Assembly: GCA_000697335.1 (NCBI GenBank)
Contig: JNEM01013603.1
Location: 1 to 43,597 of the forward strand
Direction: 5' to 3'
Length of the DNA stretch: 43,597 nt
DNA from: Conidiobolus incongruus B7586
Taxonomy: Eukaryota
Made by a program: the position numbers and the translations under genes. Below are positions 1 through 43,597 of this stretch, piece after piece. Within the stretch, counting starts at the first letter, position 1; every line of letters begins with the position of its first letter. Under the pieces are notes generated by a model. The model made no database searches, was not told where the DNA came from, and was given only the letters and a program-made list of their open reading frames with translations.

Positions 1-1011
1 AATATTTTATAATAAATATAATTATATAATTAAAATAATTAAATGAATTTTGAAATAATATTAAAACTATTAACTATAAGCTATTCTATTTAAATTTAAT
101 ATAAAACTTATTATTAATTATTTTTCCATTAATAATTGAATTAAAGTTTAATATTACTATAAAATTAGAAAATTAGGAAATTTTTTAATTTTTGATTTTT
201 TAAACATATTATTAGTTAAAAATAAAAATATATATATAAAACAAATAGGAAAATAAATAGTTTTGAATTATATATATATATATATATTAATTTTTTTGAT
301 TAAAAAATTTATTTTTTAAAATTAGTTGTTTAATTTAATTATAATTAAACAAAATAATAACCATTAAAAGTTTTTTATTTTAATATTAGTAAAACTTAAC
401 CACAAATCCTCTAAAATTATTTAAAATTTATAAGCAACTTTTGGTAATAAAGTATTATTTAAATCAATAATTTATTATTAGATAAATTATATTAAAACTA
501 AAAGAAAAATTATTTAAAACTTGTTAAAATTTAAAAGATTAATTTCAACTATTATTTTTCTAATTATTAATAAAGTGAATAATTATATTAAAAAACATCT
601 ATTTATTTTAGCTAAAAAATTATCAAGACATTTTAATATTAATTACATAAGTATTTTATATATATTAAAGTTTAAATTAAAATTAATAAATAAAAATATA
701 AAATAGGTACCATATAATTTAACTAAAGCTTAAAAAAATTAGAGTAGCTATTGTTAAATAAAATTTACTAAGGTATAACTAGAAACTAAAGCTTTTACAT
801 CAAATTATAATAATTAATAAATCTTAAATTATTTTGTATAATCTTTTTTTAAAATATAAATGAAATTGTTAGATTAAATTAAATCAACTTTTTTTATAAA
901 TTCCTTTAAATAAATAGTATATTGATAAGTGAATGTTAATTGTTATAATAGATTATAATAGCATATGCTATTTTTATTTAGTTCTTAAAGGAAAATCAAT
1001 TAATAATAAAC

Positions 1012-1360
1012 TATATTATCCTAGTGCTAGAAACTAGGATAATTGTATTGAATTAAGTTAGAGTGTGGATAAGTTATAGGATTAGGATATAGTTATATAG
1101 AGTTTTATTGGAAGTTCTTGACAAAGACTTAGAGTTAGTTTCCTTCAGATAGATAGATAGATAGATAGTTGGATAGATGGATGAGTGAATAGATAGATAA
1201 CTGGATAAATAAATAGATAGATAGATCCCTGTTGTATTTCCCCTTTTTGATATTAGGATAAGAATAGATCAATTTAAGGGAAAGTAGAATAAGAGATAAA
1301 TTATAGGTAAACTGATATTAAAGGTAAATATATATGGACTAATTGGGTAGATACATAACA
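1012..1360. mobile_element. Solo LTR (second family) inserted in mariner copy 1
   Basis: 349-bp block absent from mariner copy 2. Flanked by 5-bp direct repeat TAAAC (1007-1011, 1361-1365). Ends TA..CA (TG..CA with G>A). Confidence 0.75.
1148..1225 (+). repeat. Imperfect (GATA)n microsatellite inside the solo LTR
   Basis: gatagatagatagatagata...gatagatagatagat with ggat/gaat variants. Confidence 0.85.
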
Positions 1361-1819
1361 TAAACTTTACACTTTTTTTTTAAATAAAACTATTTCTAAT
1401 TGGTATTTTTAATATAATTTAAGAAGATTTATTATTCTGTATAATAATTGCAAAATATATTAATTTAAAGTTATAAAAAACTTTCTAATTAAAAATAACT
1501 GGAAAAAACTACTATATCTAGTATATTCTTTAGATTATAACCTATGTAATTATAATTGTTTTAGGTAATTAAAAAACTAGCTTATAGGAAAGAAAATTTC
1601 TACAAAAAAATTTAATTGGTTTATAAAACATCAAATTTCAATCTTTAATAAAAAACTATTTTTTAAATATTATATATTTACTAATAATATAGCAAAAAGT
1701 TATTAGAAATAAAAGAAATTATTAAATCTATTTTATATATTTATTTTTATTTTTTATATATTATAATATTTATTTTTATTAATTATAAAAAATTCCCATT
1801 ATTTAAATTATAAAGTAAT

Positions 1820-2219
1820 TGTTAAAAGATTAATTCTTTAAATTCTTATATATACTTTCATATAATCCAATTAACTATAAATTATATGATTAATTTATAC
1901 TTATATAGTTAAATTAATTGTATAAATAGTATTAAATCATCTAATAAACAAGGTTCCTCTTTTTTCCTCTCAATTCTTACTATTTTTTACTTTTACACTA
2001 TTTCTAAAATTGAGACTATATTCTATTGATATTATAGGATATTGGTACTACCTAATATAAATCTTAATATATTGGTGACTCATCTTAGTTTGAAGCTTAA
2101 TTAAACTTTGTTTACACTTGCATGCTACAGCCACATTATATTACTATATTCTACACCACACTACTTTTATATTAAGTTTTCCTCTACACTATATTAGTTT
2201 AACTACTACTATATTTATA
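1820..2219 (+). repeat. 5' LTR
   Basis: Starts TGTTAA, ends ...TTATA (CA>TA). Aligns gap-free with 7138-7537. Confidence 0.95.
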
Positions 2220-2230
2220 TGGTAGCAACA
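2220..2230 (+). other. Primer-binding site, probably initiator tRNA-Met
   Basis: TGGTAGC directly after the 5' LTR is complementary to the ...GCUACCA 3' end of eukaryotic tRNAiMet. Confidence 0.65.
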
Positions 2231-2345
2231 ATAAAACTATTAAAAACCTACTAGAAATTAATAATTATCTGTATCAAACCTAATTATTACTATTTTAAAT
2301 TTTATTTATAATTTATTTCATTTAAATTTAATACTATACACTATA

Positions 2346-5300
2346 ATACCACTAAAAAAAGAGATATCTTTATATTATTTTAATAATGATAACAGCTTAA
2401 TTACTGAGTGAATCTAAGACTTTAGTCTCTAAAAGCTTACTACCCTCTAAGAAGCTTATATTAGACAACTTTGGATTGAAAAAAATATGTCTCAAAAAGC
2501 TTAAATCTAATAAACCAGCTACTTCACTATAGTTAATATATTAAACCACCTCTTTAGTGTTTTTAAAGACAAATTAACTACTTATGATAGTTTAAAAAAC
2601 CTTTACAAGCTTGAAAACTACTTTAAAAACATGAAGAATTACTTTAATTTGATTCTTGATGAAGATCTAGAGAATATCCTTAAATTAGCTACTTCTTTTT
2701 TAGAAAAATCTACTTTTACTTGGTAGTTAACTTATTACAAGCTTAATCCTAAAGAATCTTCAAGAGGATAACTTACTACAAAAATATAAACTTTTAAACA
2801 ATTAGAAAAAGCTTTTAAAGAGAGGTATTACCTAAAAGATTAAATTTGATTAACAAGAGAAAAGCTTTCCTAGCTTAAATAAAAAACTTCTACAAGATAA
2901 TTAATTGAGAAATTTAATGAGATATACTTAAATATATTAAATATCACTGAAGAAGAATAAATCTACAAACTATTATAATACTTTAACTTTTAAGTGAAGC
3001 TTTAATTAGTTAGTAGGGAATACTTTGATAATATATCTTTTTCTAACATTTGTGATGCAGCAATTATAATTGATGATATTTTTTACTTTATAACTAAATT
3101 TTCCCACCTTAAAAATTAATCTTTTAAACCTTACTCTAACCTACTTAAGTTTTAAATGATAAATGTTTCTACTTTAAAGCTTTATGAGAAAACCTTTAGT
3201 GAAGAAGTTAAAGCCTACTTGAGAACAAACAAAGGTTGTTATTACTGCTAAAAAACTTAAGTTAACTATAAAGCTAATAAATACCCTTTAAAGAAGCAAT
3301 ATCTGTTTAATTCTCAATAATCCCAACCTACCAACCATAAATCAAACCTGAATAATATTAATATAACCCTAGAATTACCCTTTTTATAATTAGTTAGTAA
3401 ATTTTAATTTAATCCACAAAAGTTCTAATAAACCAATGATTCCACAAATTAAACTATGTATACTAGAGAAATCTAACTGATTAAACCACTAGAAACTAGA
3501 AATATTCTAGTAACTAATCTACCTTATAATTCTTTACCTTTAACTATCACCCTATTGTTTATATTAACTAGTTCTTTTATAAATATACTTGTTAGTGTTT
3601 TAATTAACTCTGGTTGTTTTAATTATATTATCTCTTCTTTTATTGTTGTAAAGCTATCTTTACCTACTTAAAAAAGTAACTTGATAATTAAATATGCTAA
3701 CAACTTAATAGAATAAATATTTGGTACTGTATTTAAATACCTATTATTATTTCTTAACTATTCCCAATATATTAAATTCTTAGTTGGCAACATTAGTTAT
3801 AATTTTATACTAGGTTAAAATTAGTTTGAATATCATAGTTTTATATCTATAGATATTACCCTAAAAAGTTACAAATCTATTTCTTTCACATTCTAAAAGA
3901 AATTAGTGGAATTAATCTTAAAAAATCTATATTACCCTACTATAAAATTATTAAATACTTTACCTAACACTAACTCTACAATTGTAGCAAATAATTCTAT
4001 TATTATAAGTAAAAATCAATGTAAAAAGCTAATCAAAAACCTAAATAATTTATAGGGATATATATTTGTTTATTATTTATCTATCAACATTTCATCTGTT
4101 GATTTTAATAAAGTTATATCTAATAACCACTTCCTATACAATACAATAAGTTAATTTGCTAATGTTTTTGAACCTATAAATAAATTACCACTTAAATATA
4201 ATATTGAACACAAAATTAAATTAATCCCTGGTATACAATTATACTTAAAACTTACCTACCATTTATCTCTTGAACAATATCAAACCTTAAAAGAAGAAAT
4301 CTAAAAACTACTTGAAAATAAATACATTAGACCTTTTTCCTCACTATAAAAATCTCTAATCCTCTTTATATAAAAGGTTGATGGTGGTTAGAGATTATAT
4401 ATTGATAACTGTGTTTTAAACTCTAAAACTATCAAGGATAAAACCCTATTACTAAACCTATATAATGTTAAGGATAAACTACTTAGATCAACTATATTTA
4501 TTAAACTAGATGTTAAGAATAAATATTACAACATTAGAGTTGAAGAAAACTTTATCCTTTTAATTGTTTTCAACACTCTTTTAAGCTACTATAAATTTAC
4601 TATCATAAACTTTAGATTGTGTAATGCCCCTATAATTTTCACTTAATTTATCAATTCCCTTTTCAACCTTGTTTTTAATAACTTTATTATCACCTACCTT
4701 AATAATATCTTAATCTATTCAAAAACTAAAGAAGAATATATTTAACATGTTAATTAAATTTTACAAATTATCCAAAAATATAAATTACCTTTAAAACTAT
4801 TAAAATACATCTTTAGTGCCTCTTCTATCTTTTTCTATAGTTATATTGTTTCCTCTTAAAGAATTAGTATTGATCTAACTAAACTCAATAGTGTTAAAGC
4901 TTTTACTATACTTATAAACAAAAATTAACTTATGTTTATACTTAGATTATTGAATTACTTTAAAGATTTTATTGATTTTTTTGTTGAACTTATTACTCTT
5001 CTTACTAATCTCTTAAAGAAAGACTCTCTTTTTAAATAAACCCCACTATATACTTTTTGTATAAATGCTTTGATTTTCTATATTACCAATGCTTTTGCTT
5101 TATTTATCTTCAATTTAAAACTACCTACTATTATTTTTACTAACTCTAATTCTTTTATAATTAGTGGATAATTAACTTAGTTTGAATTTAATTTATATTT
5201 TACCCTATAACTATAGGATAAAATAATAAATAAGGGAGAACAAGTTGAGTTTAACCCTACAAATGTTATTTTAAAACTAATAACATTCTAGTTAAGAAAA

Positions 5301-7151
5301 ATAAAACCAGCTGAATTGAAATACCTAGTTGATAAACAAAAACTTTTTGCTTTAGTAGAAATAATCAAAAATCACTTATATTTCTTATCCTACAACTTTT
5401 TCTTAATACTTACAGATTATAAATTACTTATCTACTTAAATACTTAGAAGCATTTATTAAGAAAATAAGTTAGATAGATTAAAACTATCCAAGCTTATTT
5501 TTTCTTTATTTAATATCTTTTAGGTTAATAAAACTATGCTGTAGATACTTTGTTAAGAAATCTTACATACTTACCCTTTTGTTCTAATTGTAAAAATCCA
5601 GCAAATATTAACTCAATGATTATTAATGAAGGAAATAAAGAATTTATTAAACTACTTTAAGAAACACTATTAAATAATAATTTCTTTATTTCAGTTAAAG
5701 AAGAACTCTTTAAACTATTAGAAAACTAACTAAAATATGTCAAAAGATTTAAAATTATCAATAACTTACTATATTATAATGATTGTCTATATAATCCTAA
5801 TATCCCCAAGATCTAACAAATAATATTTGATGAATGCTATAACTTACTTGTTAGAGAACATTAAAACTAGTTAAAAACTGTTGAGAGAATTAAAACAAAG
5901 TATTACTAGCTTTCCCTAGTTAAATCAATTTAGAAATACACTAATACTTGTAATATATACTAAAAAACTAAATATAATTCTCAACTAAAATATAATAAAC
6001 TTATTCCCTTACAAGTCCCTAATGAAATTTAACAACAAATCCAACTTGATTTCATAGAAATCTTTAAATCAACAAATGGTTATAATAACTTACTAATTGT
6101 AATTGATTTATTTTCCAAATATGTTTATTTTATTCCTTGTTTCAAAACTTCTACAGCTAAAGATATTATATAATAGTTATTCTTTAATATCTTTAACTAC
6201 TATAAAATTCTACAAACTATTATATTTGATAAAGATATACAATTCAACTCTTAATTTTAAAAGTTACTATCTTTTTCCTTTAAGATTAACCTAACTATAT
6301 CTACTACTAATCATTATTAAACCAATAAACTTGTTGAAAAAACTATTAAAACCTTAAAGTAAATAATTAAAGCCTATATTAACACTAATCAGTTAAATTA
6401 AAATACCTATATCTACCAACTCTAATATTTATTCAACATTTTTATCAATAAATCAACAGGTTTTAACCCTTATTTCATCAATTATAATAAACATCCTAAC
6501 TTAATAATTACTCTAAAACTTCAAATCAACTTACCTTTAAACATTGTTGAATTTTAATCTAATATCAAACATATCAATTCTCTTGTTAAATTTAACTTAG
6601 AAGAAAATTAAAGGATTATAGAACAATAATACTTAAAGTTATCTAGAAACCCTTTTAAATATAAAACTAGTATGTTTATATACTTAGAATAATCTACCCT
6701 TAAACCTACCTTATTTAAATCTAGCTTAAATCCCAAATACTTACTATTATATTATAGTCCCTATAAAATTTAATCTATTAATTCAAATTTTGAAAATATT
6801 ACCTTAGAATTACCTCTAACCTTGAGGATCAACCCTACCTTTTACATATCTAAAATTAAACCATACTTTAAAGATTTTAACACTTTTCTTAATTAATTAA
6901 AAACCCCAAAACTAGATCTAATTATTAATTAAGATGGAGAAGAAAAATACTATGTTGATTATATAATTAAGTCTAAATCTATTAGGAATAAGTTTTATTT
7001 TTATATAAAATAGATGGGTTATCCTATTAAAAAAGCTACATAAGAACCTCTAGAAAATATTAAGAATATTTTAGCTTATTATACCTATTTGTAAAAAATT
7101 AAGGAATGTGTCTTCTCTAAAAAACCTACTAGGGGAGTATTAAGAGACTAG
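2346..7151 (+). pseudogene. gag-pol polyprotein pseudogene (single frame, many nonsense codons)
   Basis: All motifs lie in one frame: start-like ata cca cta aaa (MPPK, ~2346), gag 'REKLS*LK*' (~2856), Zn knuckle 'GCYYC*KT*VNYKANKYP' (~3234), protease 'LINSG' (=LIDSG, 3600-3614), RT 'G*RLYIDN', 'FRLCNAP', 'YLNN' (=YLDD, 4695-4706), RNase H 'LTDYKLL', 'VDTLLR', integrase 'TC..Y*K', 'I*QQIQLDF', 'SPYKI', chromodomain 'YYVDYII...YIK*MGYP...AT*EPLEN' (~6948-7060). Confidence 0.92.
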
Positions 7152-7537
7152 TTCTTTAAATTCTTATATATACTTTCATATAATCCAATTAACTATAAAT
7201 TATATGATTAATTTATACTTATATAATTAAATTAATTGTATAAATAGTATTAAATCATCTAATAAATGAGGTTCCTCTTTTTTCCTCTTAATTCTTACTA
7301 TTTCTTACTTTTACATTATTTCTAAAATTAAGACTATATTCTGTTAATATTGTAGGATATTGGCACTACCTAATATAAATCTTAATATATCAGTGACTCA
7401 TCCTAGTTTGAAGCTTAATTAAACTTTGTTTACACTTGCACACTACAGCCACATTATATTACCACATTCTACACCACACTACTTTTATATTAAGTCTTCC
7501 TCTGCACTATATTAGTTTAACTACCACTACACTTACA
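7138..7537 (+). repeat. 3' LTR
   Basis: Starts TATTAA (TG>TA) right after the PPT, ends CTTACA, followed by TSD GTAAT. Confidence 0.95.
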
Positions 7538-9543
7538 GTAATATATATTAATATATTAATATATTAATTAATGTTTACTTATAATTTAATATATATTAAA
7601 TTATAATTAATAAATATGATTATATCATTTTAATTTTGAAATTTAATATATTTTAATCATAGAATTATATAATATGATTTAAAAATCTTTAATTAATTAA
7701 AATTATTTTAAATTCTTTAATATTTAATTACAATTTAGTAAGCTTTTTTTTATTATAGATTTTTTAGCTTATTTTATTTTTAGTTAATAATAACAAGTTT
7801 ATTATATATTTTTATTGATTAATATAGGCTTTATTTTATTTATTAGATATTATTTTTTAGATAATATCGATAAACTATTATAATAATATATTTAAAATAT
7901 AATGATATTTTAATATATTAAATAATATATTAATTTATAAAAATTAAAAATAAAACTTATATTTTTATGTTAAAAAAATATTTATTAGTTTTTCTTTTAG
8001 TTTTGAAAAATTTATTTAGCAATAGATAATCAATATTAATAAAACATTATTTTTATAAATCATTAATAAAATTTAAATAATTTCAAAAATTATATTGCTA
8101 AGTTTTACTAATATTAAAATAACAAATTTTTGTTAACTATTATTTAATCTAAATATGATTAATTTTAATAATATATTTTTAAAAGTTAATTTCTTAATAA
8201 AAAACTTATATTATATATATTTAGTTTAAAGCTATAAATTTTTATATTCATTTTGAATTTATTTGTTTCTTTGAAAATTCAAAAATTAAGAAATTTCAAA
8301 TTTTTGCAATTCCTAGGTAATAATAAAATTAAAATATACTTAAAATGGAGCTTTGATAATTTATAGTTTTCTCAATTATATTATACTATTATAACTCAGG
8401 TTTATATAATTTTAGTAATGAATATAATAAATTACTAAATTAACAAATAAAAGCCTTATAATATAATCTAGATTTTGGAAATATATATATTTGTTGCTAA
8501 AAAATTATTATTATTATTATTTGCAAAAATATTCTATAATTAGATATTATAAATCAAATTTCATAAAAAACATCAAAGAATTATAACAATATATGAGAAA
8601 ACAATTTATTATTAAAAAAATATCATTTTTTTCAAGGAACTAAAGAATCCAATAGATAGTTTCGCATAATATTATAAATATTTATTAAGGTTTTAAAGTA
8701 TTAAAGTATTAAAATTAAAAATTAAATCATTTCAAAATAATGTATTTAAAATTTGAAAAATTAATTTCAGATTTTTCTATGTACTGTTTTTTGAAACGTT
8801 TGCATCAAATATTGAATAATCGGTTTATATTAAGCAAATGATCAAATATAAATATAATGACTAACAACTCATATTTTCTAAACAGACTATTCCATTATCA
8901 ACAATACCTAATCTATAATCATTAAATTTAATTTAAATTTTTAAAGAATTATAAAAACTTGAATATTTTTTGTTGAAAATACAAATAATTAGGACTTGGC
9001 GTTCTTAAGTTCAAATTCAGAAAAATCCAATTCTAAAATTGTTAATAATATCCAATTTTTTCAAAAGTTTATATAATCTGTTTAGAATTATATTTTTCTT
9101 TAAAATTTATATTAATAAGAGAATTTTACAAGTATTTCAGTCATAATAATTTCAATTATCAATGGAGAAATTTACTAAGAATAGTTGATTGCAATAAAGA
9201 GCACGTCAAATATTTTTAGCCATATTTTTATATATTTATTATGATATTGGATAAAAAATTGAAGGTTATATAATATCAAGAGTTGAAATTAAAAATAAGT
9301 AGCAAATTATCATTGTTCAAATAGAATTGAATTTAGCTGGAACGCGATATTATTAAAAATACTATATACTTAATACAATTGACTCTATTGTGGATATTTT
9401 GTTTTAGAATTTGTTTTTCCAAGTCAAAAATAAATATGAATTCGGTCAAATTACTCAATTTAAGACAAATTGATTCATTGCAACTAAAATTAGAATTCAA
9501 TTTCATTTAGATTAATCCCAAATTGAGAGAGAATTTGGTCGAG

Positions 9544-9550: not shown

Positions 9551-9601
9551 AACCCTCGTATTCCTCTGGAATCTTTAAATTAATAATTAAATGAATTTAT
9601 A

Positions 9602-11304
9602 ATGACAACTGATATTATTTTAATAAATCAACAAATCTCTAACATTCATTGTACGCTATGTAGAAAGAAAAAATTAAAATGTGACAGGAAGTTACCCCAG
9701 TGTGGCAGGTGCGTTATGAATAATATTCAATGTGAATATGTTAAAAAGAGTAGATTTTATAAATTTCAATTTAAAATTGAAAATCCTAAAGATTTAAAAG
9801 CTTACCATAATCAAGGTAGTCCTATAATCATATATTAAAGATCAGTTTTAAATGATATTATATTCATTTAGTCTGTTATCAACTTACAAAATCCTTATCT
9901 TTTTCAAATAAGAGTTGGAGCGACAGTAACGATACGTTACTGTCACCTTTACATAGGGCAACTTCAGTGGATGAAATTATTAGATTCGCATTTAACTACC
10001 CATATACCAATTATTACCAGATCGGAAATAATCTAAGTACTGACCAATATCTTAATCGCAAAATCCAATACAGTTTGGACAAGTATCCCATCGAAGTAAT
10101 TGGTAAAGATAATAGCAAACAATTTATTATTTATTCACTCTCACCAACCGCTCGCCCACTCTATTTATTGACCCAGAAGACTTTTTGGAATGAGTTGATT
10201 GAGTTATATGTACAAAATTTTCACCTTATGTTTCCCGTATTTAGTTTAAGATACTTTGACCCAGATACCGCTCCAAATCATCTTTTAGCTGCTATTTATT
10301 TAGCAGGATATTTGTATCGCGCAGAACGACCAATATGTGTGACCGATTACTTGGAAAAGTATACAGAGATTGCTACCAAGCGATGTGCCTATCATCCAAG
10401 TATATCGTCACTTCAAACGCTCTATATTATGGCGCAATATAGTCACTTTACTAATAATACTAGCAAACGTCGCATGTACCAGAGTTGTCTTACGCGATTG
10501 GCATATACTCTGGGACTTCATCATCCTTTAAAGAATAATAATCCATTACTACGTTATGAAGCAGATCTTATATGGAGTAGAATCACTCTACTTAACCTCA
10601 ATTTCTCAGGTGTATCGTTCGAACCTAATTATATTGTGAATTACCCCAGGTTTTTAACCGGCCTGAACCCCAGTTATCAATTACCGCACCCCAACTACAA
10701 TTTCGATCCCCAGAATGTGACAATTTCGGATGTAATCGCATTGTGCATTACGTACAACGTCATGTCTATTGACATCATCCTCCAGTACTATTGGGATAAT
10801 ATCAGGACTGCGAATCATGTCGAACGCATTTCGCACAAGTTGGAAACTAGGTGCGACAAGGGAGATGTGGAATTCCTCAGAGCGTGTCAATTTTACGACG
10901 ATTTGATCGAAAAGCACCCTAACTACAAGGATTCCATACTGACTTTCAAGACCAAGCTCAGTATTTACTGCAGCATTATGGACATTCACTACTTTAACGC
11001 AGATCCCGAAGACCCTACCGAAATCAACCGAGAAAAAATCGACAAGTTGATACAAAGCTGTCACGCACTGATCACCATTATGACCAATAATCCAGGATCA
11101 GCGAAACTCTATACTACTGGATTCTTAATAGCAGCTGGATTGGCATATTTAAAAGGACTAAAATTTGCTAATAAGTCACAAACCAATTTAATTTTAGCAG
11201 ATTTAGATTTTTTAATTGACTGGATTTTAAAGTATGGGGATGATTCTGCGAAATTGCCCTTGGTGATTTTGAAGTATGGGAGGAAAGATTGGCTAATGCA
11301 TTGA
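9602..11304 (+). CDS. Zn(II)2Cys6 fungal transcription factor, 2 exons: join(9602..9815,9872..11304), ~548 aa
   Basis: CTLCRKKKLKCDRKLPQCGRCVMNNIQC binuclear cluster. A 56-nt GT..AG intron joins ORF 9602 in frame to ORF 9967. Fungal_trans-like region 'ELIELYVQNFHLMFPVFS'. Confidence 0.92.
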
Positions 11305-11495: not shown

Positions 11496-11933
11496 TTATG
11501 ATGAGGATCTTGCACCTGCACTGCTAGCCATTGTCTCACCGGGTTTACACAGCATATTTCCCATTGTTGATGCAGCATCTTTACTTCCGGATCCTCCAGC
11601 AGTTCCTGTAACACATAGTGCACCTCCATTGCTACTTTCACCTGAGCCTGGAGCACCTTCAGAGGCATCTGCTGTACCGTCACTACCACTAGCACCAGAT
11701 GCCCCTCCTGCACCACCAGCACTAGGGGTGCCTCCTGTACCAGCATCAGCAGTGCCAGGAGCAACACCGGTAGAACCGCCATCAACACCCGGAGCGTCTG
11801 AAGTACCATCGAGAGGGCCACCATCAAAACCAGGAATGCCGCTTGATGTACCGTTGACACCATTTGTATTCTGAGAACTTGTGAAACTAAGAGACAAAAT
11901 AGCAGTTAAAGTAATCGAATTAAGCAATTTCAT
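11496..11933 (-). CDS. Secreted Gly/Ala/Ser-rich protein, 145 aa; paralog of 13220-13852 whose GPI-type tail (11370-11495) lies behind an in-frame TAA (truncated gene or young pseudogene)
   Basis: Signal peptide MKLLNSITLTAILSLSFTSSQ. After the TAA the frame continues PTSSNVSKSDVLSIVGVTGITSFVMISSFLFTVFYN, homologous to the paralog's C-terminus. Confidence 0.8.
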   Translation of the reverse strand: MKLLNSITLTAILSLSFTSSQNTNGVNGTSSGIPGFDGGPLDGTSDAPGVDGGSTGVAPGTADAGTGGTPSAGGAGGASGASGSDGTADASEGAPGSGESSNGGALCVTGTAGGSGSKDAASTMGNMLCKPGETMASSAGARSSS

Positions 11934-25610: not shown

Positions 25611-27494
25611 ATGTTTGATATTCATTCTTTAATTATAACGGATTCACCTAAAATAGCTCGAAATGAAAAGAGTCATGATTTATCTAAACAAAATAAGAGC
25701 CATATAAGTTGCATTCCCTGCAGGCAAAAAAGACAGAAATGCGATAGAACTTTACCTCAGTGCAATCGTTGCCAAAGATCAATATACAATTGTGAATATC
25801 GCACTAGGAAGCCGCTTAAATTTAAGCATCTATCGATCGGACCAGAGTCAAAAACTATTACTTATCAGGCTTCGAAAAATAAGAAAAATCTATGGATAGT
25901 AGAGAATTTGGATCTTATCAAACCTACACAGAATATGTCACTGGATGACACAACCACTAAAATCAAATCAAAGACGAAAAAGCAGCAGGAACGCTTTAGT
26001 GAATATGAGCCATCTAAACCTAATGATGTACTCACCATTCACAAGGGTAAATTGGCTATTGTGACTAAATCTCATGCACCCATATTACTTTCAACCATTC
26101 TGTCCTACTTTAAATTATCCGGTAAATTCGTATTCACTACACGGGAGGATTTAATTCGATATCTTTTGTTTTTCCCACTTGTGGATTATTCCCAATTTTA
26201 TTACGACGTTATAACCCAGTTGTCATCAAATCCCGCGGTTACCAAACTCTTCCATCCTGGCCCAATTCAAGGTCTGCCGTCACCGTGTAAATCACCAACA
26301 GTAAAATCCATTAACAAGACATTTAATTCCAAGCTAGATATTGTTCCAGATCCGGCATTTTGGGATGAATTAACTAAAGAGTATTTCCATCATTTTCATG
26401 CTACAACACCGCTTTTCAGTTTGCGCACCTTTGATAATACCAAACTTCCAAGTTATCTCCTTTTCACAATCCAGTGGGCAGGATTCACACTATCTTCAGT
26501 GCACTATGATTCAGTAATCGCACTCAGCATCAACGAGTATATGGAGAGTCAGTTAATTAAGTACCGAAATCATTGCAAACTTTCAGTTCTACAAATGATG
26601 ATCATTTATTATTCTATCAAATTTAGTCAAAGTTGCAGTGTTAAAAATCGGGCATATTTGGGGCATATCACCCGTTTAAGCTGGACTTTGGGTTTACACT
26701 TCAATAAGCCTAAATTAAGAAATGAAGATTTGGAATATGAATGTAAGATGGCTTATCTTTTTGTAGTGAATTTAAATATGATGCATAGTGGAAGGGTATA
26801 TCGTATGAATTTTGTGACGGCTGAGCCTATTCCAATACCCTTTTGTAATCCCAAATTCCAAAGGAGTCCAGATTCACTTGATGATGATATAAGAGATATT
26901 GTGAAAGCTTGGAGCGTTAGCATTGCCACGTCATTTACCTATGATATCTGCTCTAAGGGCTGGGATCTCAAAATTGTATTTCCTAATATCAAGGACAATT
27001 CCATTGATATCAAACGGGAGCAAGATTTGATCCAATCCCAGTTAGCCAGAGTGAAGACGCAATATGAATATTTGATCCGATGCTATCCAGATCATAAAGA
27101 TATTCCTCAGCCCTTTATTCTCTTGTGCACTTTTTATTCTCAATCCATTATGCTCTACAATCACTGTAATCCTTTGACAGGACTTTCGCAGTTAAGCCAT
27201 GAACAAATGGAGTTTTCGGTAAACAACTGTGATAAAATGCTGAATATAGTAGACGAAATGTTCATCAAGGGATCCAATGGCTGGAGTCGATGCTATAAAA
27301 TTATTGGAATGTTCTGCCTAAAGTTACTGCCTTACCTTGATGAAAAGCTCAGACCAGCAGGCTTTCAAATGATGAATGATATTTTGAATAATCTTAAAGA
27401 TGCATCAAATCTAACAAATCCTTTAGCTCCTTTACCTTTCGAAATCAGATTGCTGGATGAGGGTTTTAACTGGATTAAACAAAATTGTTTATAA
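25611..27494 (+). CDS. Zn(II)2Cys6 fungal transcription factor, ~627 aa (first ATG 25611; an upstream exon is not excluded)
   Basis: CIPCRQKRQKCDRTLPQCNRCQRSIYNC cluster. 'FWDELTKEYFHHFHATTPLFS' and 'ITRLSWTLGLH' parallel the 9602 paralog. Confidence 0.93.
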   Translation: MFDIHSLIITDSPKIARNEKSHDLSKQNKSHISCIPCRQKRQKCDRTLPQCNRCQRSIYNCEYRTRKPLKFKHLSIGPESKTITYQASKNKKNLWIVENLDLIKPTQNMSLDDTTTKIKSKTKKQQERFSEYEPSKPNDVLTIHKGKLAIVTKSHAPILLSTILSYFKLSGKFVFTTREDLIRYLLFFPLVDYSQFYYDVITQLSSNPAVTKLFHPGPIQGLPSPCKSPTVKSINKTFNSKLDIVPDPAFWDELTKEYFHHFHATTPLFSLRTFDNTKLPSYLLFTIQWAGFTLSSVHYDSVIALSINEYMESQLIKYRNHCKLSVLQMMIIYYSIKFSQSCSVKNRAYLGHITRLSWTLGLHFNKPKLRNEDLEYECKMAYLFVVNLNMMHSGRVYRMNFVTAEPIPIPFCNPKFQRSPDSLDDDIRDIVKAWSVSIATSFTYDICSKGWDLKIVFPNIKDNSIDIKREQDLIQSQLARVKTQYEYLIRCYPDHKDIPQPFILLCTFYSQSIMLYNHCNPLTGLSQLSHEQMEFSVNNCDKMLNIVDEMFIKGSNGWSRCYKIIGMFCLKLLPYLDEKLRPAGFQMMNDILNNLKDASNLTNPLAPLPFEIRLLDEGFNWIKQNCL

Positions 27495-30465: not shown

Positions 30466-31443
30466 TTATTCATAAAATATTTGATGAATTCTTCTTAATT
30501 TGTTAATTATCCTTATTTTAAAAGGAATTGATTGGTTGAATTGAATAAGGGAGGAATTGGTTGTTAAATCACTAATGTCTTCTTTTAGAAACGGTTTTTC
30601 ATCGTTAACAGATTCTTTGAATGATGAGGAAATTGAGGGGTTACCATGAGCAATACAATATAGTAAACCTTCTTTCAATTGGAATTTGCTCTTAATTTGA
30701 ATATTACATACAGTACAAGTTAAACATTGTAAATGAAATGTTCTTTTGGAATTTCCTCGACCTATTCTAATACCGTCTTTATAATTGTCTATATTCTTTT
30801 TGCACTTAGCGCACTTTAATTCGGTGGCTTCTTTAGATGGTTCTTGACAATAATTCAAGGTAGAGTCTGTGGATGGTTGCGATCGGTGGGATTTTTTATG
30901 AGGGGAATGGGTGGATGATATTTGGGGATAAAATTTAGCAAAGTTTTTATAGTCTTCAATACAATAAACATTATTTTCTAGCAATTTGTAATCACATGAG
31001 TCATATAACGATTTTCCACATTTGGCACATTTCAAATGTCCTGGATGCCAGCAGAGGTTGGATAGTTGTATGACACTATCTTTGATGGGGAGGTGGCAAT
31101 GGTAACAGACAGGATATGAAGACGAGTTACTGGTTTGGCTAGTGCAGTTGGCAGTGTTTGTAGCATTATCATCTAGTTTGCTCGGATCGATATGGCTATG
31201 AAAATCAGATTCAATCGATTTGTAATATTTAGTTATCGAGTTGATTTCTTCAAGCACTTCATCTAAGAATCCTTCGATAATAGAGCTTCTAGTATGTATG
31301 CTTAATACATCAGTGGGATCAAATACTCCAGAGTCTTTATGTATTTTATCCACTTGAGATGAGTCAAGAAGTTTTCGATTAATGTCTGACGATTTTTCAA
31401 ACTCAGATTTTAGCGGTAAGCAAGAATGTAATACAGTTATCAT
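30466..31443 (-). CDS. Two-LIM-domain (paxillin-like) zinc-finger protein, ~325 aa; may have an upstream exon
   Basis: LIM1 CYHC...WHPGHLKCAKC...YCIEDY. LIM2 CAKC...FHLQCLTCTVC...YCIAH. Acceptor-like TTTGCTAG one base before the ATG. Confidence 0.88.
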   Translation of the reverse strand: MITVLHSCLPLKSEFEKSSDINRKLLDSSQVDKIHKDSGVFDPTDVLSIHTRSSIIEGFLDEVLEEINSITKYYKSIESDFHSHIDPSKLDDNATNTANCTSQTSNSSSYPVCYHCHLPIKDSVIQLSNLCWHPGHLKCAKCGKSLYDSCDYKLLENNVYCIEDYKNFAKFYPQISSTHSPHKKSHRSQPSTDSTLNYCQEPSKEATELKCAKCKKNIDNYKDGIRIGRGNSKRTFHLQCLTCTVCNIQIKSKFQLKEGLLYCIAHGNPSISSSFKESVNDEKPFLKEDISDLTTNSSLIQFNQSIPFKIRIINKLRRIHQIFYE

Positions 31444-32585
31444 CCTAGCAAAATATCAAACTCAATTTTCATATAGAATTAACCCTTATATATTCCAACT
31501 CAAACACGGATTATTATCCCTTTTTAATATAAATAATTAACTAATTTAGGAAATTGATAATTATTTTATTTTTCGTTTTCTCCTCAAATAAATGATTCAA
31601 TTTCAGTTAATTCATTTAAAAGAATTGATGTCAAGTATAGTTAAGATAGCGTACATCAATTAGTTCTTTACCATATGAAGGATAGATGCTTGTTATAACT
31701 GAAAATCATTTAATACAATTTAATCAGTTTTTTCTTAAATATAAAGTAATTACAATCTAGGTTTACTATATCATTTGAGTATAGCAAATTCAATCAATTC
31801 TTTGTTATTGCAATCAAAACATGATTAAATCATAGGTTTATTTGTATTGTCACAAATTTCAATTACCATAAAAATAATAAAAAATTTCAAATAACTAAAC
31901 ATGAAAATTCAGGGTTTTATAATGATCATATTCAAAGTAGTATAAAATATTGGTACAAATATCACTAACATTTAGTTAATTAATGACGTTGAAATACTTT
32001 GATTCAATAAACAATTATCAGTGGCAAATATATACATGAAAATTTGTATAAGTTAATCTAAACATTATTCTTTTAACAAATAAACTTTCACATTATTTGT
32101 AAAATCGAAATTATAATAAAGAAAATTCAACAGTCTAAATTAAAATTTATCAAGTCCATTTTATTTCAAACAAAGATTTTCCTATATTAAAATGATCCAG
32201 ATTATTATTTAATTAGTATTTTAAATGTTGTATACATATTACTCTAAACTTGTTGATATTAGAATACCAATTAATAGTATACTATAATATAATAATAAAA
32301 CATTATATGGTTTACAATGATAAATATGATTAATTTGAGATTTTAATCAAGAATTTCATGATTTGATTATCTATGTAAATTTTGATAATTAACTAAATAT
32401 GTATATATAATTAAATTTCAATATATAACATTATAAATTTAAAAATAATATATAAATATTTTGAGATTGATTATAAACACTGATGTTAATTTATGAATTC
32501 ATATTATTAACAATAATTTTTTAGATAGCTAGCTTCAATATACAATGTCCTTAATGTATTTTGATAAAATAATATTAATATACAT

Positions 32586-36394: not shown

Positions 36395-36476
36395 AATGGA
36401 TAATAAATAATGAGATATTAAATTATTATACAAATAGTTAGTAGTTATATAATTTGCAGCCTGATGCTCAAGATAC

Positions 36477-36484
36477 TTTATATA
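36477..36484 (-). promoter_or_regulatory. Putative TATA box of the fungalysin gene
   Basis: TATATAAA on the minus strand ~85 nt upstream of the ATG. Confidence 0.3.
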
Positions 36485-39768: not shown

Positions 39769-40077
39769 TGTTGTAAAACTCAATCGTTTACAGCTCCATA
39801 AGTTTCAGGATGGTAGAAATTATCATTGGGATTAGTGTCGTGTGAAGTCATCCTTTTCAAAATATAAACACTGTTAAATAATATTATGAACTTGATTGAA
39901 AATAAGTATAAAACCTAGAAGGGATCTTTCTTTATTGTTCAAATATAAAAAAATGCTTTTATATTGTAGAGAAACACAACTATAATATCAGATGCTTTTA
40001 TCAAAGCATCGTTTATTAACATGAACATGCTTAAATATAATACTCATAAATGTAACATAGTTTATTTGAATTTAAAA
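39769..40077. repeat. Diverged ~300-bp direct repeat, copy B (partner 32586-32883)
   Basis: Same blocks, order and orientation as copy A. Confidence 0.75.
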
Positions 40078-40656
40078 TATATTATTAGATCATATTATAA
40101 ATAAAATATATTACCTAATATAATAATCTGTTGATTATTTAATGTATTAAGGAATATAAAGTATTTATAAACTATCTTGTAAATTAATATTTAATAAGAT
40201 AAAAATCAAAATTTTTATCTATAACTAAGGGATGATTTTGGTGTTAATATATAATCTTTTTTTGAATATATTAGTTCAAAACAAAAAATTGATAAATTTT
40301 TCAATTTTTGACTTTTCAAATATATTGTAATCTTTGAAAAATTAATTATATATAAAAAATATAAAAAATTAATATTTTTTAAACATATATTATTTATAGT
40401 TATTTTTTCTATAAATATTTTTAATTAAAATTTCAAAATTTAATTAAAAATAAATTAAATATTGATTATCAAAAGTTTTTTACTTTGGTATTTTTAAAAC
40501 TCAACTATAGATCTTTTAAAATCTGTAGATAATTTATAAAAATAATTCTGTATTTATAACTATTATTTATTATTATTATTATTATTTACTCTAATAGTTA
40601 AATAGGATATTAATTAATATTTACTTAAATTAGAAATCTAATTAATATTTTTATTA

Positions 40657-41949
40657 TTACTTTGTAATTTAAATAATGGGAATTTTTTGCAATTAAAAAA
40701 AATATACATTTTAATATTTACAAAGTAAAAATAAATATATAATATAAAATTAATAATTTCCTTTATTTTTAATAACTTTTTGCCTTACTTTTAGCAAAGA
40801 TCTAATACCTAAAAAACAATTCTTTTTATTAAGGACTGAAATTTGATATTTCACAAACCAATTAAATTTTCCTGTAGAAATTTTCTTTACTACAAGTTGG
40901 TTTTTTAATTACCTAAAACAATTATAATTATATAGGTTATATTCTGGGGAATATACTAAATATGGTAATTATTTCTTGTTATTTTTAATTAGAAAGTTTT
41001 TTATAGCTTTAGATTTATATATTTTGTAATTATCATGCAAAATAATAGCTTTTTTCAAATTATATTGAGAATACCAATTTGAAATAGTTTTATTTAAAAA
41101 AGAAATATAAAGTTTACTATTAATTGATTTTCTTTTAAGAAATAAATATAAATAATATATGTTATTATAATCTATTGTAATAATTAACATTTATTTATTA
41201 ATAAAGTATTTATTTAAAGTAATTTGTAGAAAAGGTTAATTTAACTTAATCTAACACTTTGATTTATATTTTGATAAAAGATTATATAAAAGAACCTAGG
41301 ATTTATTAATTATAGTAATTCATTGTAAAAGCCTTGGTTTCTAGCTATACCTTAGTAAGTTTTATTTAGCAATAACTACTCTAGCTTTTTTTAAGCTTTA
41401 GTTAAATTATAAGGTACCTATTTTGTATTTTTATTAATTAATTTTAATTTAAACTTTAATATATATAAAATACTTATATGACCAATATTAAAATATCTTG
41501 ATAATTCTCTAGTTGAAATAAAAGGGTGCTTTTTAATATAGTTTTTCACTTTATTAATAATTAAAAAAATCATAGTTAAAATTAGTTTTTTAGATTTTAA
41601 TAGGTTTTGGGTAATTTTTCTCCTAATTTTAAAGTAATTTACCTAGCAATAAATTATAAATTTAGATAATACTTTATTACCAAAAGTTGTTTATAAATTT
41701 TAAATAATTTTAAAAAATTTAAGGTTAAGTTTTATTAATATTAAAATAAAAAACTTTTGATAGTTACTATTTAGTTTAAGTATAATTAAATTAAACAACT
41801 AATTTTAAAAAATTATTATATATATATATATATAATTCAAAATTATTTATTTTCTTATTTATTTTGTATATATTTTTTTATTTGAAACTAATAATATATT
41901 TGCAAAATCAGAAATTAAAACATTTCCCATTTCTTTGATTTTATGGTAA
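40657..41949 (-). mobile_element. Degenerate full-length (1293 bp) Tc1/mariner DD34D transposon, copy 2
   Basis: TA on both sides (40655-56, 41950-51). Imperfect TIRs TTAC...AATGGGAA. Minus-strand relic: '*VPYNLTKA*KKARV', 'ITIINKS*V', 'MLIITIDY', 'IILHDN', 'LPYLVYSPEYNLYNY', with 34 residues between the 2nd D and the (mutated) 3rd D. Confidence 0.9.
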
Positions 41950-42725
41950 TATTTATTATAAAAGAAAGAAATATATTATACTATATCTTTTTATTTTTAC
42001 TTAAAAGTCTATTAAATAATTTAATATTGATAGTATTTATATAATAATTATAAATAATCTTAAATTTAAAATAATTATAAGAATATAAAATTAATATCCT
42101 ATAATTTAATAAAAATTTAAAAAATATAAAATAATTATAGCTAAATAATACTTATTAAAATATAACTAAAAGTATAGGTACTTTAAATAAATTAATATAA
42201 TCAATTAATCTTAAATTGCTTTATATAAACTTTTTTTTGAAAAATAAACAAAATATTAAGTTAAAATATCTTTTTAATTAAATTTCCATTAATAAATATT
42301 TGATTAATAACAAATATTAAATAAAATAATTAATTATAATTAAATATAGTTTTCTTATTTGGTTTTTAATAATATATCACTTAATGTTAAGTTATATATT
42401 GTTTTATTTATAATAACTTTTAATCCATATATTTATTATATTTAATTATAAAATATATTAAGTTATAGTAATATAATATTTTCCATATAAAAAATTCAGA
42501 ATAAACCTATCTAATCTAATATTTTTAGTTTGTTATATCTTATATATAAATATATATATATATATAATTTTATTCAGTAAATAAAAAACACATTTATTAA
42601 AAAAAATTTATAAAAATAAATTAATTAATATAATTTCTAATTTCATATTTTTTCAAAAAAGCTATTTTTAAAAGTTAAAAGCTTATCAAATTATAGTAAT
42701 AAGTTTTTGATAGTATTATAATATT

Positions 42726-43123
42726 TGTTAAAAGACTAGTTCTCTAAATTCTTATATATACTTTCATATAATTCAATTAACTATAAATTATATGATTAAT
42801 TTATACTTTTATAGCTAAATTAATTATATAAATAGCATTGAATTATTTAATAAACTAGGTTCCTCTTTTTCCTCTCAATATTTATTTTTTCTTATCCTTT
42901 CCACTATTTCTAAGTTTGAGACTACATCCTGTCAATATTACAGTATATTGGCACTACCTAATATAAATCTTAATATATCAGTGACTCATCCCAGTTCGAA
43001 GCTTAATTAAACTTTGTTTACATTTGCACGCTACAGCCACGTTATAATACCATGTTCCGTGTCACGCTACTCTTATATTAAGTCTTCCTCTGCACTTTAT
43101 TGGTACTTACCACCACGCTTACA
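42726..43123 (+). mobile_element. Solo LTR of the same Gypsy family as 1820-7537
   Basis: TGTTAA...CTTACA, 398 bp, TSD ATATT (42721-25, 43124-28). Aligns with both LTRs. Confidence 0.95.
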
Positions 43124-43597
43124 ATATTAATAAATTTTATTATTTATTCTCTATAAATATAAAATATTTATAATTTTATTAAATTTTAATTTTTAAATTT
43201 TGTATTATATAATTTTTATATAGATATCATATATATTTAAATAAAAATCATAAGCTGAATATTTGAAAAGATATATATGAAATTATTTAAATATATTAAT
43301 ATATTATCCTAATATCAAATAAAAGAAATTAATATTTTTTTTATTTAATTAAATATAATATTTTTTTTTAAATTTTATAAAATCAATTATATAATAATTA
43401 AATAATTATCATCAAAAATTTTTAATTATATTATTATTAAAACTTAACTATAAGCCTTTTGAAATAGAAATAATATTTTATTTAGATTTTTTATTCATAA
43501 TTAGATAAATTTTTTTAAACTAAAAAAATATTAAAAATTTATTAAATTTTAAAAATTTAACTTTAATTTCTATTTTTATAGTTATTGATAAATAAAT

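What the first reader, a model, noticed from the sequence alone, without database searches (positions are those of the whole stretch)
2346..7151. 4.8-kb gag-pol keeps one reading frame but is saturated with nonsense and D>N/C>Y/H>Y changes
Seen: gag (2850), protease (3591), RT (4695), integrase (6000) and chromodomain (6933) motifs all sit in the same frame, so there is no net frameshift. Stops repeatedly occupy Gln (CAA>TAA) and Trp (TGG>TAG/TAA) positions, and catalytic motifs read LINSG and YLNN. Both C>T and G>A occur, so both strands were mutated. Inference: inactivation was rapid and acted on double-stranded chromosomal DNA over several rounds. It does not look like ordinary ageing or one-strand APOBEC-type editing of cDNA. 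The ancestral element is reconstructable, including an unusual CX2CX5HX4C-like knuckle.
Basis: partly seen in the sequence, partly recalled or inferred. Interest (0 to 1): 0.7.

Follow-up and report, generated by a model that had tools for sequence, protein, structure and literature searches.

The report
RIP-like decay of Conidiobolus-type retrotransposon
A full-length jumping gene in a Conidiobolus-like fungus has been killed almost entirely by C-to-T changes on both DNA strands that spare neighbouring unique DNA, likely through a methylation-linked genome defence resembling RIP, in a fungal group where RIP is still disputed.

Summary
Confirmed and extended. The ORF belongs to a complete chromodomain-bearing Ty3/gypsy element (1820-7537; 400-bp LTRs, 5-bp target duplication) in a Conidiobolus-like fungus (Zoopagomycota). 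It holds 85 internal stops in one unshifted frame. The two LTRs differ by 28 transitions, 0 transversions and 0 indels. The element has 0 CpG (63 expected). At conserved residues, 86 of 102 changes need only C>T/G>A (null 18), and none needs only the reverse change. Across the family in two runs of one sample, 96-97% of variable places are transitions, on both strands. Loss follows CpG > CpA > CpT > CpC. A neighbouring Tc1/mariner DNA transposon shows the same bias, so this is not cDNA editing. Best reading: repeat-directed, methyltransferase-linked C>T mutation (RIP-like), likely cumulative. True pairing-based premeiotic RIP is not shown. Correction: the knuckle spacing is CX2CX6HX4C and is shared by intact relatives. 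Published evidence for RIP in this subphylum that I found is index-level only, and one kingdom survey scores C. coronatus 'no_rip'. This scan noted similar decay before on other DNA (Dimargaris, Jimgerdemannia).

The parts
1820..2219 (+). 5' LTR, 400 bp, starts TG, terminal CA now reads TA; 0 CpG
7138..7537 (+). 3' LTR, 400 bp, terminal TG now reads TA, ends CA; differs from the 5' LTR by 28 transitions, 0 transversions, 0 gaps
1815..1819 (+). left copy of 5-bp target-site duplication GTAAT
7538..7542 (+). right copy of target-site duplication GTAAT
2220..2227 (+). likely primer-binding site (starts TGG directly after the LTR); likeness to an initiator-Met tRNA site is recalled, not tested
   Evidence: no tRNA gene in the window
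2346..7151 (+). single gag-pol frame, 1601 codons, 85 internal stops, no frameshift found
2688..2972 (+). Retrotrans_gag match (E 0.0014, below cut-off)
3237..3284 (+). degenerate zinc knuckle, spacing CX2CX6[H]X4[C], with His and last Cys positions read as Tyr
3600..3614 (+). aspartic protease motif, catalytic Asp position reads Asn (LINSG)
4461..4838 (+). reverse transcriptase (RVT_1, E 1e-11); first Asp kept, YxDD position reads YLNN at 4695
5136..5498 (+). RNase H; first acidic residue reads Asn
5817..6338 (+). integrase: H2C2 zinc domain (degenerate) and core; the D, D, E triad is still intact (6048, 6228, 6336)
6948..7070 (+). chromodomain (E 0.003 here; E 3e-10 in sister P0311)
7131..7137 (+). 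purine tract directly before the 3' LTR
42726..43123 (+). solo LTR of the same family (other subfamily: 10 transversions, 3 gaps), TSD ATATT; keeps 6 CpG (6.8 expected); internal control
150..1819 (+). Tc1/mariner-type DNA transposon remnant directly left of the gypsy element; same mutation bias, 0 CpG
40655..41953 (-). second Tc1/mariner remnant (DDE_3 match 40891-41178, E 3e-4, below cut-off); 0 CpG

Best explanation
This is a complete Ty3/gypsy element with a chromodomain, in a Conidiobolus-like fungus, whose gag-pol has been destroyed by C-to-T changes on both strands of repeated chromosomal DNA, likely caused by a repeat-directed cytosine methyltransferase whose targets are then deaminated (a RIP-like process). 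Shown: full LTR structure; transition-only LTR divergence; direction C>T/G>A; both strands; context order CpG > CpA > CpT > CpC; restriction to repeats; the same bias in a DNA transposon; a many-copy family. Inferred: (1) the element inserted and was recognised as repeat; (2) a DNMT1/DIM-2-class enzyme, not RID, methylated CpG strongly and non-CpG sites more weakly; (3) methylated or enzyme-bound cytosines became T and were fixed at replication, hit after hit, so TGG went to TAG and then TAA; (4) this ran far faster than the ordinary mutation clock and cumulatively, probably in vegetative growth as for Dim2 in Zymoseptoria. The enzyme, the methylation and the life stage were not observed.
For: LTR pair 28 transitions, 0 transversions, 0 gaps in 400 nt. 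0 CpG in 5718 nt, 63.4 expected; unique DNA 8700-40000 keeps 406 of 548 expected. CpA o/e is 0.71 in the ORF against 1.06-1.31 in ten unique regions, some equally AT-rich; composite RIP index +0.61 against -0.30 to -0.83. Conserved residues: 86 of 102 changes reachable by C>T/G>A alone, null mean 17.8 and max 30 of 2000 draws; 48 G>A, 35 C>T, 3 both, 0 reverse-only, 16 need a transversion; K 10/10, N 5/5, I 6/6 kept, W 0/9, Q 0/4, G 4/22 kept. Trp codons: 14 of 15 are stops, 8 TAA, 6 TAG, 0 TGA, as a CpA-before-CpC order predicts. Three-way LTR loss: CpG 25/40, CpA 24/66, CpT 16/92, CpC 3/36; LTR pair CpA 13/34 v CpC 0/14, p 0.01. Family: 37,387 and 32,855 contig pieces laid; 1409 of 1461 and 1367 of 1412 variable places are transitions, 3 indel places listed (both runs are one sample). 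Tc1 pair 132 transitions v 46 transversions, CpA 50/74, CpT 62/109, CpC 12/42. RT branch 1.92 v 0.43 for its sister. Precedent for non-CpG, methyltransferase-dependent mitotic C>T: PMC8016269. 5mC in repeats of a zoopagomycete is cited in PMC11258239. RID/Masc1 reported only from Pezizomycotina: PMC5751038.
Against: No genome is held, so no methyltransferase gene was looked for and no methylation measured. PMC11258239 says 5mC is scarce in Zoopagomycota. In Zymoseptoria the Dim2-linked mutator hits CpA and spares CpG, unlike here. The solo LTR keeps all its expected CpG (6 v 6.8) between CpG-free flanks; regional methylation should have reached it unless it is young, and escape of a 398-bp repeat suits a length-dependent pairing process better. 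16 of 102 conserved-site changes need transversions and the Tc1 pair has a transition:transversion ratio of only 2.9, so ordinary divergence contributes. The two LTRs share more losses than a single rate predicts (22 both lost, 22 one lost, 66 both kept at sites where the solo has C/G), so some changes may predate this insertion. Context counts rest on about 120 sites.
Confidence: 0.62

Rival explanations
1. True RIP: duplicated DNA is recognised by direct homologous pairing around the sexual stage (zygospore formation) and mutated in bursts by a RID-like or convergent enzyme.
For: All the spectrum evidence above fits. Non-CpG sites are hit hard, CpA above CpT. The 398-bp solo LTR largely escaped (13 of 117 sites lost v 39 and 29 for the paired LTRs). 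Boundaries to unique DNA are sharp. Stajich et al. found RIP indices up to 24.2% and methyltransferases of RID-like domain layout in related Entomophthorales (PMC11105155).
Against: CpG is the most complete loss, unlike Neurospora RIP (CpA-preferring; PMC4352252). No strand-coherent tracts: runs test p 0.07 and 0.66 on the two Tc1 copies. A second, 349-bp solo LTR-like insert has 0 CpG of 4.9 expected. RID/Masc1 reported only in Pezizomycotina; the eLife authors say their candidates cannot be read as RID homologues. C. coronatus scored no_rip.
Confidence: 0.22
2. Much of the damage is inherited: already-mutated, non-autonomous copies were re-copied in trans by an active partner (or homogenised by conversion), and only about the 28 LTR differences' worth of change arose after this insertion. 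The mutator is the same; the history differs.
For: LTR-LTR divergence is 7% while 102 of 212 conserved residues are changed. Shared losses in both LTRs are frequent. Most family pieces are 90-99% alike to this copy.
Against: Saturation of hot contexts gives shared losses without shared descent; the solo LTR is of another subfamily, which inflates 'both lost'. Three CpG sites read TG in one LTR and CA in the other, so they were intact at insertion. The longest unique pieces differ by 14-20% (table 8).
Confidence: 0.1
3. Ordinary ageing under a genome-wide AT-biased mutation pressure.
For: The whole window is AT-rich; unique intergenic DNA is about 20% GC. Six private transversions and 7 places where this copy has C and nearly all others T exist among the 40 listed.
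Against: 0 transversions and 0 indels in the LTR pair; no frameshift in 1157 aligned codons; equally AT-rich unique DNA keeps CpG (85 of 113 expected) and has CpA/TpG in excess (z +3.6, +3.4) while the ORF has CG z -8.5 and CA z -9.8. A paralogous host gene pair shows 32 transitions v 20 transversions in 203 nt.
Confidence: 0.04
4. APOBEC-type deamination of the minus-strand cDNA during reverse transcription.
For: G>A changes slightly outnumber C>T at conserved residues (48 v 35), and the element has a negative GC skew.
Against: Both directions are abundant; C>T places 555 of 674 C and G>A places 319 of 372 G vary in the family. The LTRs of one insertion differ in both directions. A DNA transposon without a cDNA stage shows the same bias. 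The preference lies in the 3' base, with no 5' T or C preference.
Confidence: 0.02

Closest known systems
Repeat-induced point mutation (RIP) of Neurospora and other Pezizomycotina (RID-dependent, premeiotic)
   Same: C:G>T:A transitions confined to repeats, both strands, few indels, positive composite index, strong CpA loss, retro- and DNA transposons alike.
   Different: Host lies outside Dikarya; CpG is lost completely and ahead of CpA; RID, pairing dependence and sexual timing are not shown; no strand tracts detected.
Dim2-dependent mitotic C>T mutator of Zymoseptoria tritici (PMC8016269, passages read)
   Same: Repeat-confined, over 95% transitions, non-CpG targets, would need no sexual cycle.
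   Different: There more than 98% of changes are at CpA and CpG is spared; here CpG, CpA and CpT are all hit.
CpG/TpCpG hypermutation of transposons in Pucciniomycotina and CpG+CpA in Tuber (PMC3318451 abstract; PMC4352252 passages)
   Same: CpG is the top target; tied in print to DNMT1/Masc2-type methylation followed by deamination. Tuber has CpG first, CpA second.
   Different: No 5' T preference here; CpA/TpG is depleted rather than built up, so non-CpG loss is heavy.
RIP-index signal in Entomophthorales (PMC11105155, passages read)
   Same: Same subphylum; Ty3 elements dominate the repeats; RIP-like signal proposed.
   Different: That work used dinucleotide indices in windows only; here the mutations are counted between copies, with direction and context, in a Conidiobolus-like host.
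Chromodomain-bearing Ty3/gypsy elements (chromoviruses)
   Same: LTRs with TG..CA ends, 5-bp TSD, gag-PR-RT-RH-IN-chromodomain order.
   Different: Closest relatives are unnamed metagenome proteins (35% to P0161/P0311); a small clade with a CX2CX6HX4C knuckle; not assigned to a named clade.

Membership tests
Ty3/gypsy LTR retrotransposon | direct LTRs with TG..CA ends and 4-6 bp target duplication | tested here: met
   400-bp LTRs, TSD GTAAT; one terminal base of each LTR has itself changed by transition
Ty3/gypsy LTR retrotransposon | domain order PR-RT-RNaseH-IN | tested here: met
Chromovirus | chromodomain at the integrase C-terminus | tested here: met
   Chromo E 0.003, below cut-off in the damaged copy; E 3e-10 in sister P0311, aligned through the domain
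Chromovirus | RT groups with named chromovirus clades (Tcn1, Tf1, Maggy, Pyret and others) | tested here: inconclusive
   Quick IQ-TREE, 48 rows: sister to P0311 (99), in a 7-row clade (95) with the three X6-knuckle elements; no named fungal references were available; long branch and odd composition flagged
RIP (Neurospora type) | C:G>T:A transitions far above other changes | tested here: met
RIP (Neurospora type) | confined to repeated DNA | tested here: met
   one window only
RIP (Neurospora type) | CpA is the preferred target | tested here: not met
   CpG 25/40 > CpA 24/66 > CpT 16/92 > CpC 3/36; CpA leads only among non-CpG sites
RIP (Neurospora type) | strand-coherent tracts from single passages | tested here: inconclusive
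   runs test p 0.07 and 0.66; many passages would blur tracts
RIP (Neurospora type) | dependence on repeat length and identity (pairing) | tested here: inconclusive
   398-bp solo LTR mostly spared, 349-bp solo LTR-like insert not
RIP (Neurospora type) | RID/Masc1 methyltransferase required | not testable with these tools
   no genome held
RIP (Neurospora type) | acts between fertilisation and meiosis | not testable with these tools
   needs crosses
Methylation-linked deamination of repeats | 5mC on the repeats, in the contexts that mutate | not testable with these tools
   needs methylome; context order is only suggestive
APOBEC-type cDNA editing | one-strand G>A, limited to elements with a cDNA stage | tested here: not met

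The most novel reading that the evidence does not exclude
Entomophthoromycotina run a true homology-sensing RIP without RID, with its own target order (CpG > CpA > CpT > CpC). RIP would then predate the Dikarya split or have evolved twice, and current k-mer screens miss it because the host background is itself AT-rich or the genome was not sampled.
Probability: 0.22. Interest if true: 0.82.

Novelty: new variant of a known kind. Interest (0 to 1): 0.5.

Why it matters
Whether RIP-like genome defence exists outside Dikarya is open. One 2024 paper proposes it for Entomophthorales from indices alone, with stated caveats; a 2025 kingdom-wide screen finds it only in ascomycetes and scores the one entomophthoralean it holds as no_rip. 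This locus gives copy-level evidence (direction, both strands, context, repeat restriction, retro- and DNA transposon) in a Conidiobolus-like fungus, and so a concrete target for methylome and knockout tests. Practical side: LTR-divergence dating and RT trees are distorted here (7% LTR divergence with no transversion; a 4.5-fold longer RT branch). The element itself is an ordinary dead chromodomain-bearing gypsy.

Tried and rejected
Whole genome: none held, so no methyltransferase search and no full-length copy alignment. Metagenome scan for DNA of intact relatives with P0311: 23 pattern matches, none confirmed. Sequencing runs: no RNA holder listed; runs X5 and X6 laid nothing, which is no proof of absence. 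Copy number from summed depth: not used, the tool says it is no copy number. Strand-tract test: not significant. 5' base preference (TpCpG or APOBEC type): none seen; loss 0.20-0.38 across the four bases, lowest after A. Self-priming complement of the primer site inside the LTR: the transition-tolerant scan was too loose to tell. tRNA genes in the window: 0. Careful RT tree did not finish; the quick tree is reported. Pfam on six frames of 40200-42725: 1 of 6 frames hit (DDE_3, below cut-off). Earlier notes for this genome: none; sequence look-up gave one unrelated hit. 'Unusual CX2CX5HX4C knuckle' rejected as miscounted and shared. Stop-codon reassignment as cause of the stops rejected: long host ORFs are open under the standard code and the stops go with missense changes of the same chemistry.
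Full report
Observation. The frame 2346-7151 holds 85 internal stops and a terminal TAG; the five other frames hold 129-261. Read with X at the stops, it matches Retrotrans_gag, RVT_1, RT_RNaseH, Integrase_H2C2, rve and Chromo in that order; gag, rve and Chromo are below Pfam's curated cut-offs. The closest intact relative among 1.84 billion representatives is P0161 (35% identity), with a longer cluster member P0311; both are unnamed JGI proteins. P0311 aligns as one tblastn match of 1157 columns in one frame over 3645-7091, and its 8 gaps are whole codons. So pol has no frameshift; for gag the evidence is the Pfam match and knuckle in the same frame. LINSG (3600) and YLNN (4695) face D in 89% and 97-100% of 35 relatives.

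The element. The ORF is the inside of a complete LTR element, 1820-7537: two 400-bp LTRs, TSD GTAAT, a TGG-starting primer site at 2220 and a purine tract before 7138. A solo LTR of the family lies at 42726-43123 with TSD ATATT. In a quick RT-RNase H tree of 48 rows the element is sister to P0311 (SH-aLRT 99) within a 7-row clade (95); its branch is 1.92 against 0.43, and the tool flags it as long and compositionally odd. No named fungal chromovirus references were on hand, so no named clade is assigned. The knuckle has six residues between the second Cys and the His position, not five; P0163, P0170 and P0190 have an intact CX2CX6HX4C and all three fall in the same clade.

Host. The window's fungalysin has Conidiobolus coronatus as best hit (61%) and nests among C. 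coronatus paralogues with Entomophthora as sister (FastTree support 96-99, 36 of 121 sequences used). The host is therefore a Conidiobolus-like member of Entomophthoromycotina, not C. coronatus NRRL 28638 itself. This rests on one gene. No genome is held.

Mutation spectrum. The LTRs, identical at insertion by established retrotransposon biology, differ at 28 of 400 sites, all transitions, with no gap; the 5' LTR lost 19 C/G and the 3' LTR 9; 16 are C/T and 12 G/A on the plus strand. The element has 0 CpG against 63.4 expected, while unique DNA 8700-40000 keeps 406 of 548. CpA is also depleted (o/e 0.71; unique regions 1.06-1.31), and the composite RIP index is +0.61 against -0.30 to -0.83. 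Pure CpG decay would raise TpG/CpA, so non-CpG cytosines are hit too. Equally AT-rich unique DNA (10.9 kb, 20% GC) shows CpA and TpG in excess. At 212 columns conserved in at least 75% of 35 relatives and in P0311, 102 are changed; 86 are reachable from the conserved residue by C>T/G>A alone (48 G>A, 35 C>T, 3 both), 0 by the reverse alone, 16 need a transversion; random codons from the same ORF give 17.8 on average and at most 30. All 13 stops at such columns face Trp or Gln. Against P0311 alone, 22 of 54 aligned stops face W or Q and 3 face R; the rest face variable residues, where the element's own ancestor is unknown. Of 15 Trp in P0311, 14 are stops here: 8 TAA, 6 TAG, 0 TGA, as expected if the G whose partner C lies in CpA goes first. 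With the solo LTR as third copy, loss in the paired LTRs is CpG 25/40, CpA 24/66, CpT 16/92, CpC 3/36; the solo lost 13 of 117. There is no 5' T or C preference.

Family. Four runs of one sample hold the element. Laid on 2350-7100, two of them gave 37,387 and 32,855 contig pieces; 1409 of 1461 and 1367 of 1412 variable places are transitions and 3 indel places are listed (the tool warns that not all differences were counted). 555 of this copy's 674 C and 319 of 372 G are read as T or A in at least 1% of the depth; 316 T and 219 A are read as C or G, which puts the earlier GC content at 33% or more against 22% now, if those are ancestral. Among the 40 listed best-supported places, 27 are this copy's own T/A where most pieces keep C/G (17 CpT, 10 CpA), 7 are the reverse and 6 are transversions; 1439 rows were not shown. 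Ordinary change is present but small beside C>T loss. Two runs under the same species label laid nothing.

Control by a DNA transposon. The repeat left of the element and its inverted copy at 40655-41953 are Tc1/mariner remnants (DDE_3, E 3e-4; matching frames in the left copy). Both have 0 CpG, and they differ by 132 transitions and 46 transversions, CpA 50/74, CpT 62/109, CpC 12/42. No cDNA stage is needed, which excludes editing during reverse transcription. A paralogous host gene pair shows 32 transitions and 20 transversions in 203 aligned bases.

Results against a simple story. No strand-coherent tracts (runs test p 0.07 and 0.66). The solo LTR keeps 6 CpG of 6.8 expected inside CpG-free surroundings, but another 349-bp solo LTR-like insert has none of 4.9. 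Where the solo has C/G, both LTRs have lost 22 sites, one has lost 22 and both keep 66; by hand, one uniform rate would give about 10 double losses. Hot contexts and subfamily divergence can explain this, as can damage inherited before insertion.

Mechanism. I commit to repeat-directed, methyltransferase-linked C>T mutation acting cumulatively (0.62), ahead of true pairing-based premeiotic RIP (0.22), inherited damage re-copied in trans (0.10), ageing (0.04) and cDNA editing (0.02). The CpG-first order points to a DNMT1/DIM-2-class enzyme (inference from PMC4352252 and PMC7862722, passages). The enzyme, methylation and timing are unobserved.

What is known. [quoted passage not shown] PMC12543289 (abstract, sections 8 and 9, supplement rows) finds RIP-like signatures only in ascomycetes and scores C. 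coronatus no_rip; supplementary files 13-19 were not searched. PMC5751038 (passages) places RID/Masc1 in Pezizomycotina. PMC8016269 (passages) shows a Dim2-dependent mitotic mutator at CpA that spares CpG. PMC3318451 (abstract) gives TpCpG for Pucciniomycotina. PMC11258239 (passages) notes repeat 5mC in Linderina but scarce 5mC in Zoopagomycota generally. PMC13297926 (passages) and 10.1101/2023.12.22.573025 (one passage) added nothing on RIP in this group. Six searches listed no paper with a copy-level mutation spectrum for Conidiobolus; subscription papers are not covered, and the primary fungal methylome survey these papers cite was not read. Earlier notes of this scan describe similar decay in Dimargaris and Jimgerdemannia; they are unchecked AI notes, they agree with the reading I had already recorded, and they are not counted as support.

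Verdict. Real and well supported as an observation. The element is an ordinary dead chromodomain-bearing gypsy. The process is a RIP-like variant in a lineage where it is disputed: it works like RIP in outcome, but is not filed as Neurospora-type RIP, since the CpA-first feature was tested and not met and RID and timing could not be tested. Interest 0.5.

Noticed in passing
window 42726-43123: Solo LTR of the same family keeps 6 CpG (6.8 expected) although 40011-42725 has 0 of 11.9 expected; young insertion or escape by size.
   Followed up: partly
window 1012-1360: 349-bp insert in the left Tc1 remnant with 5-bp TSD TAAAC, likely a solo LTR of another family; 0 CpG of 4.9 expected; contains a GATA-type microsatellite.
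   Followed up: partly
window 150-1819, 7539-8333, 40245-43597: Several nested, very AT-rich remnants of one Tc1/mariner family at 66-85% identity form both ends of the window.
   Followed up: partly
window 11496-11939 and 13220-13924 (minus strand): Two paralogous small Gly/Pro-rich ORFs with hydrophobic N-termini, likely secreted or GPI-anchored; they keep CpG and show no transition-only pattern.
   Followed up: partly
window 9587-11304 and 25524-27494: Two Zn2Cys6-type transcription factor genes (Fungal_trans and Zn_clus hits).
   Followed up: no
window 34523-36484 (minus strand): Intact fungalysin M36 protease, nested among C. coronatus paralogues in the tree; used to place the host.
   Followed up: yes
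window 18500-21000 and 30466-31455: Intron-rich SacI phosphatase gene and a LIM-domain gene.
   Followed up: no
P0170 residues 394-486: An intact relative with the X6 knuckle has a weak Dam adenine-methyltransferase match between gag and protease (E 3.5e-4, below cut-off).
   Followed up: no
window 6048, 6228, 6336 and 4509: Integrase D, D, E and the first RT Asp survive while the protease, YxDD and RNase H Asp positions read Asn; probably chance plus context.
   Followed up: no
window 4256, 4604, 4772, 5111, 5539, 5692, 6821: Seven places where this copy has C and nearly all family pieces T; 5 of 7 are third codon positions, perhaps subfamily differences from the active phase.
   Followed up: partly
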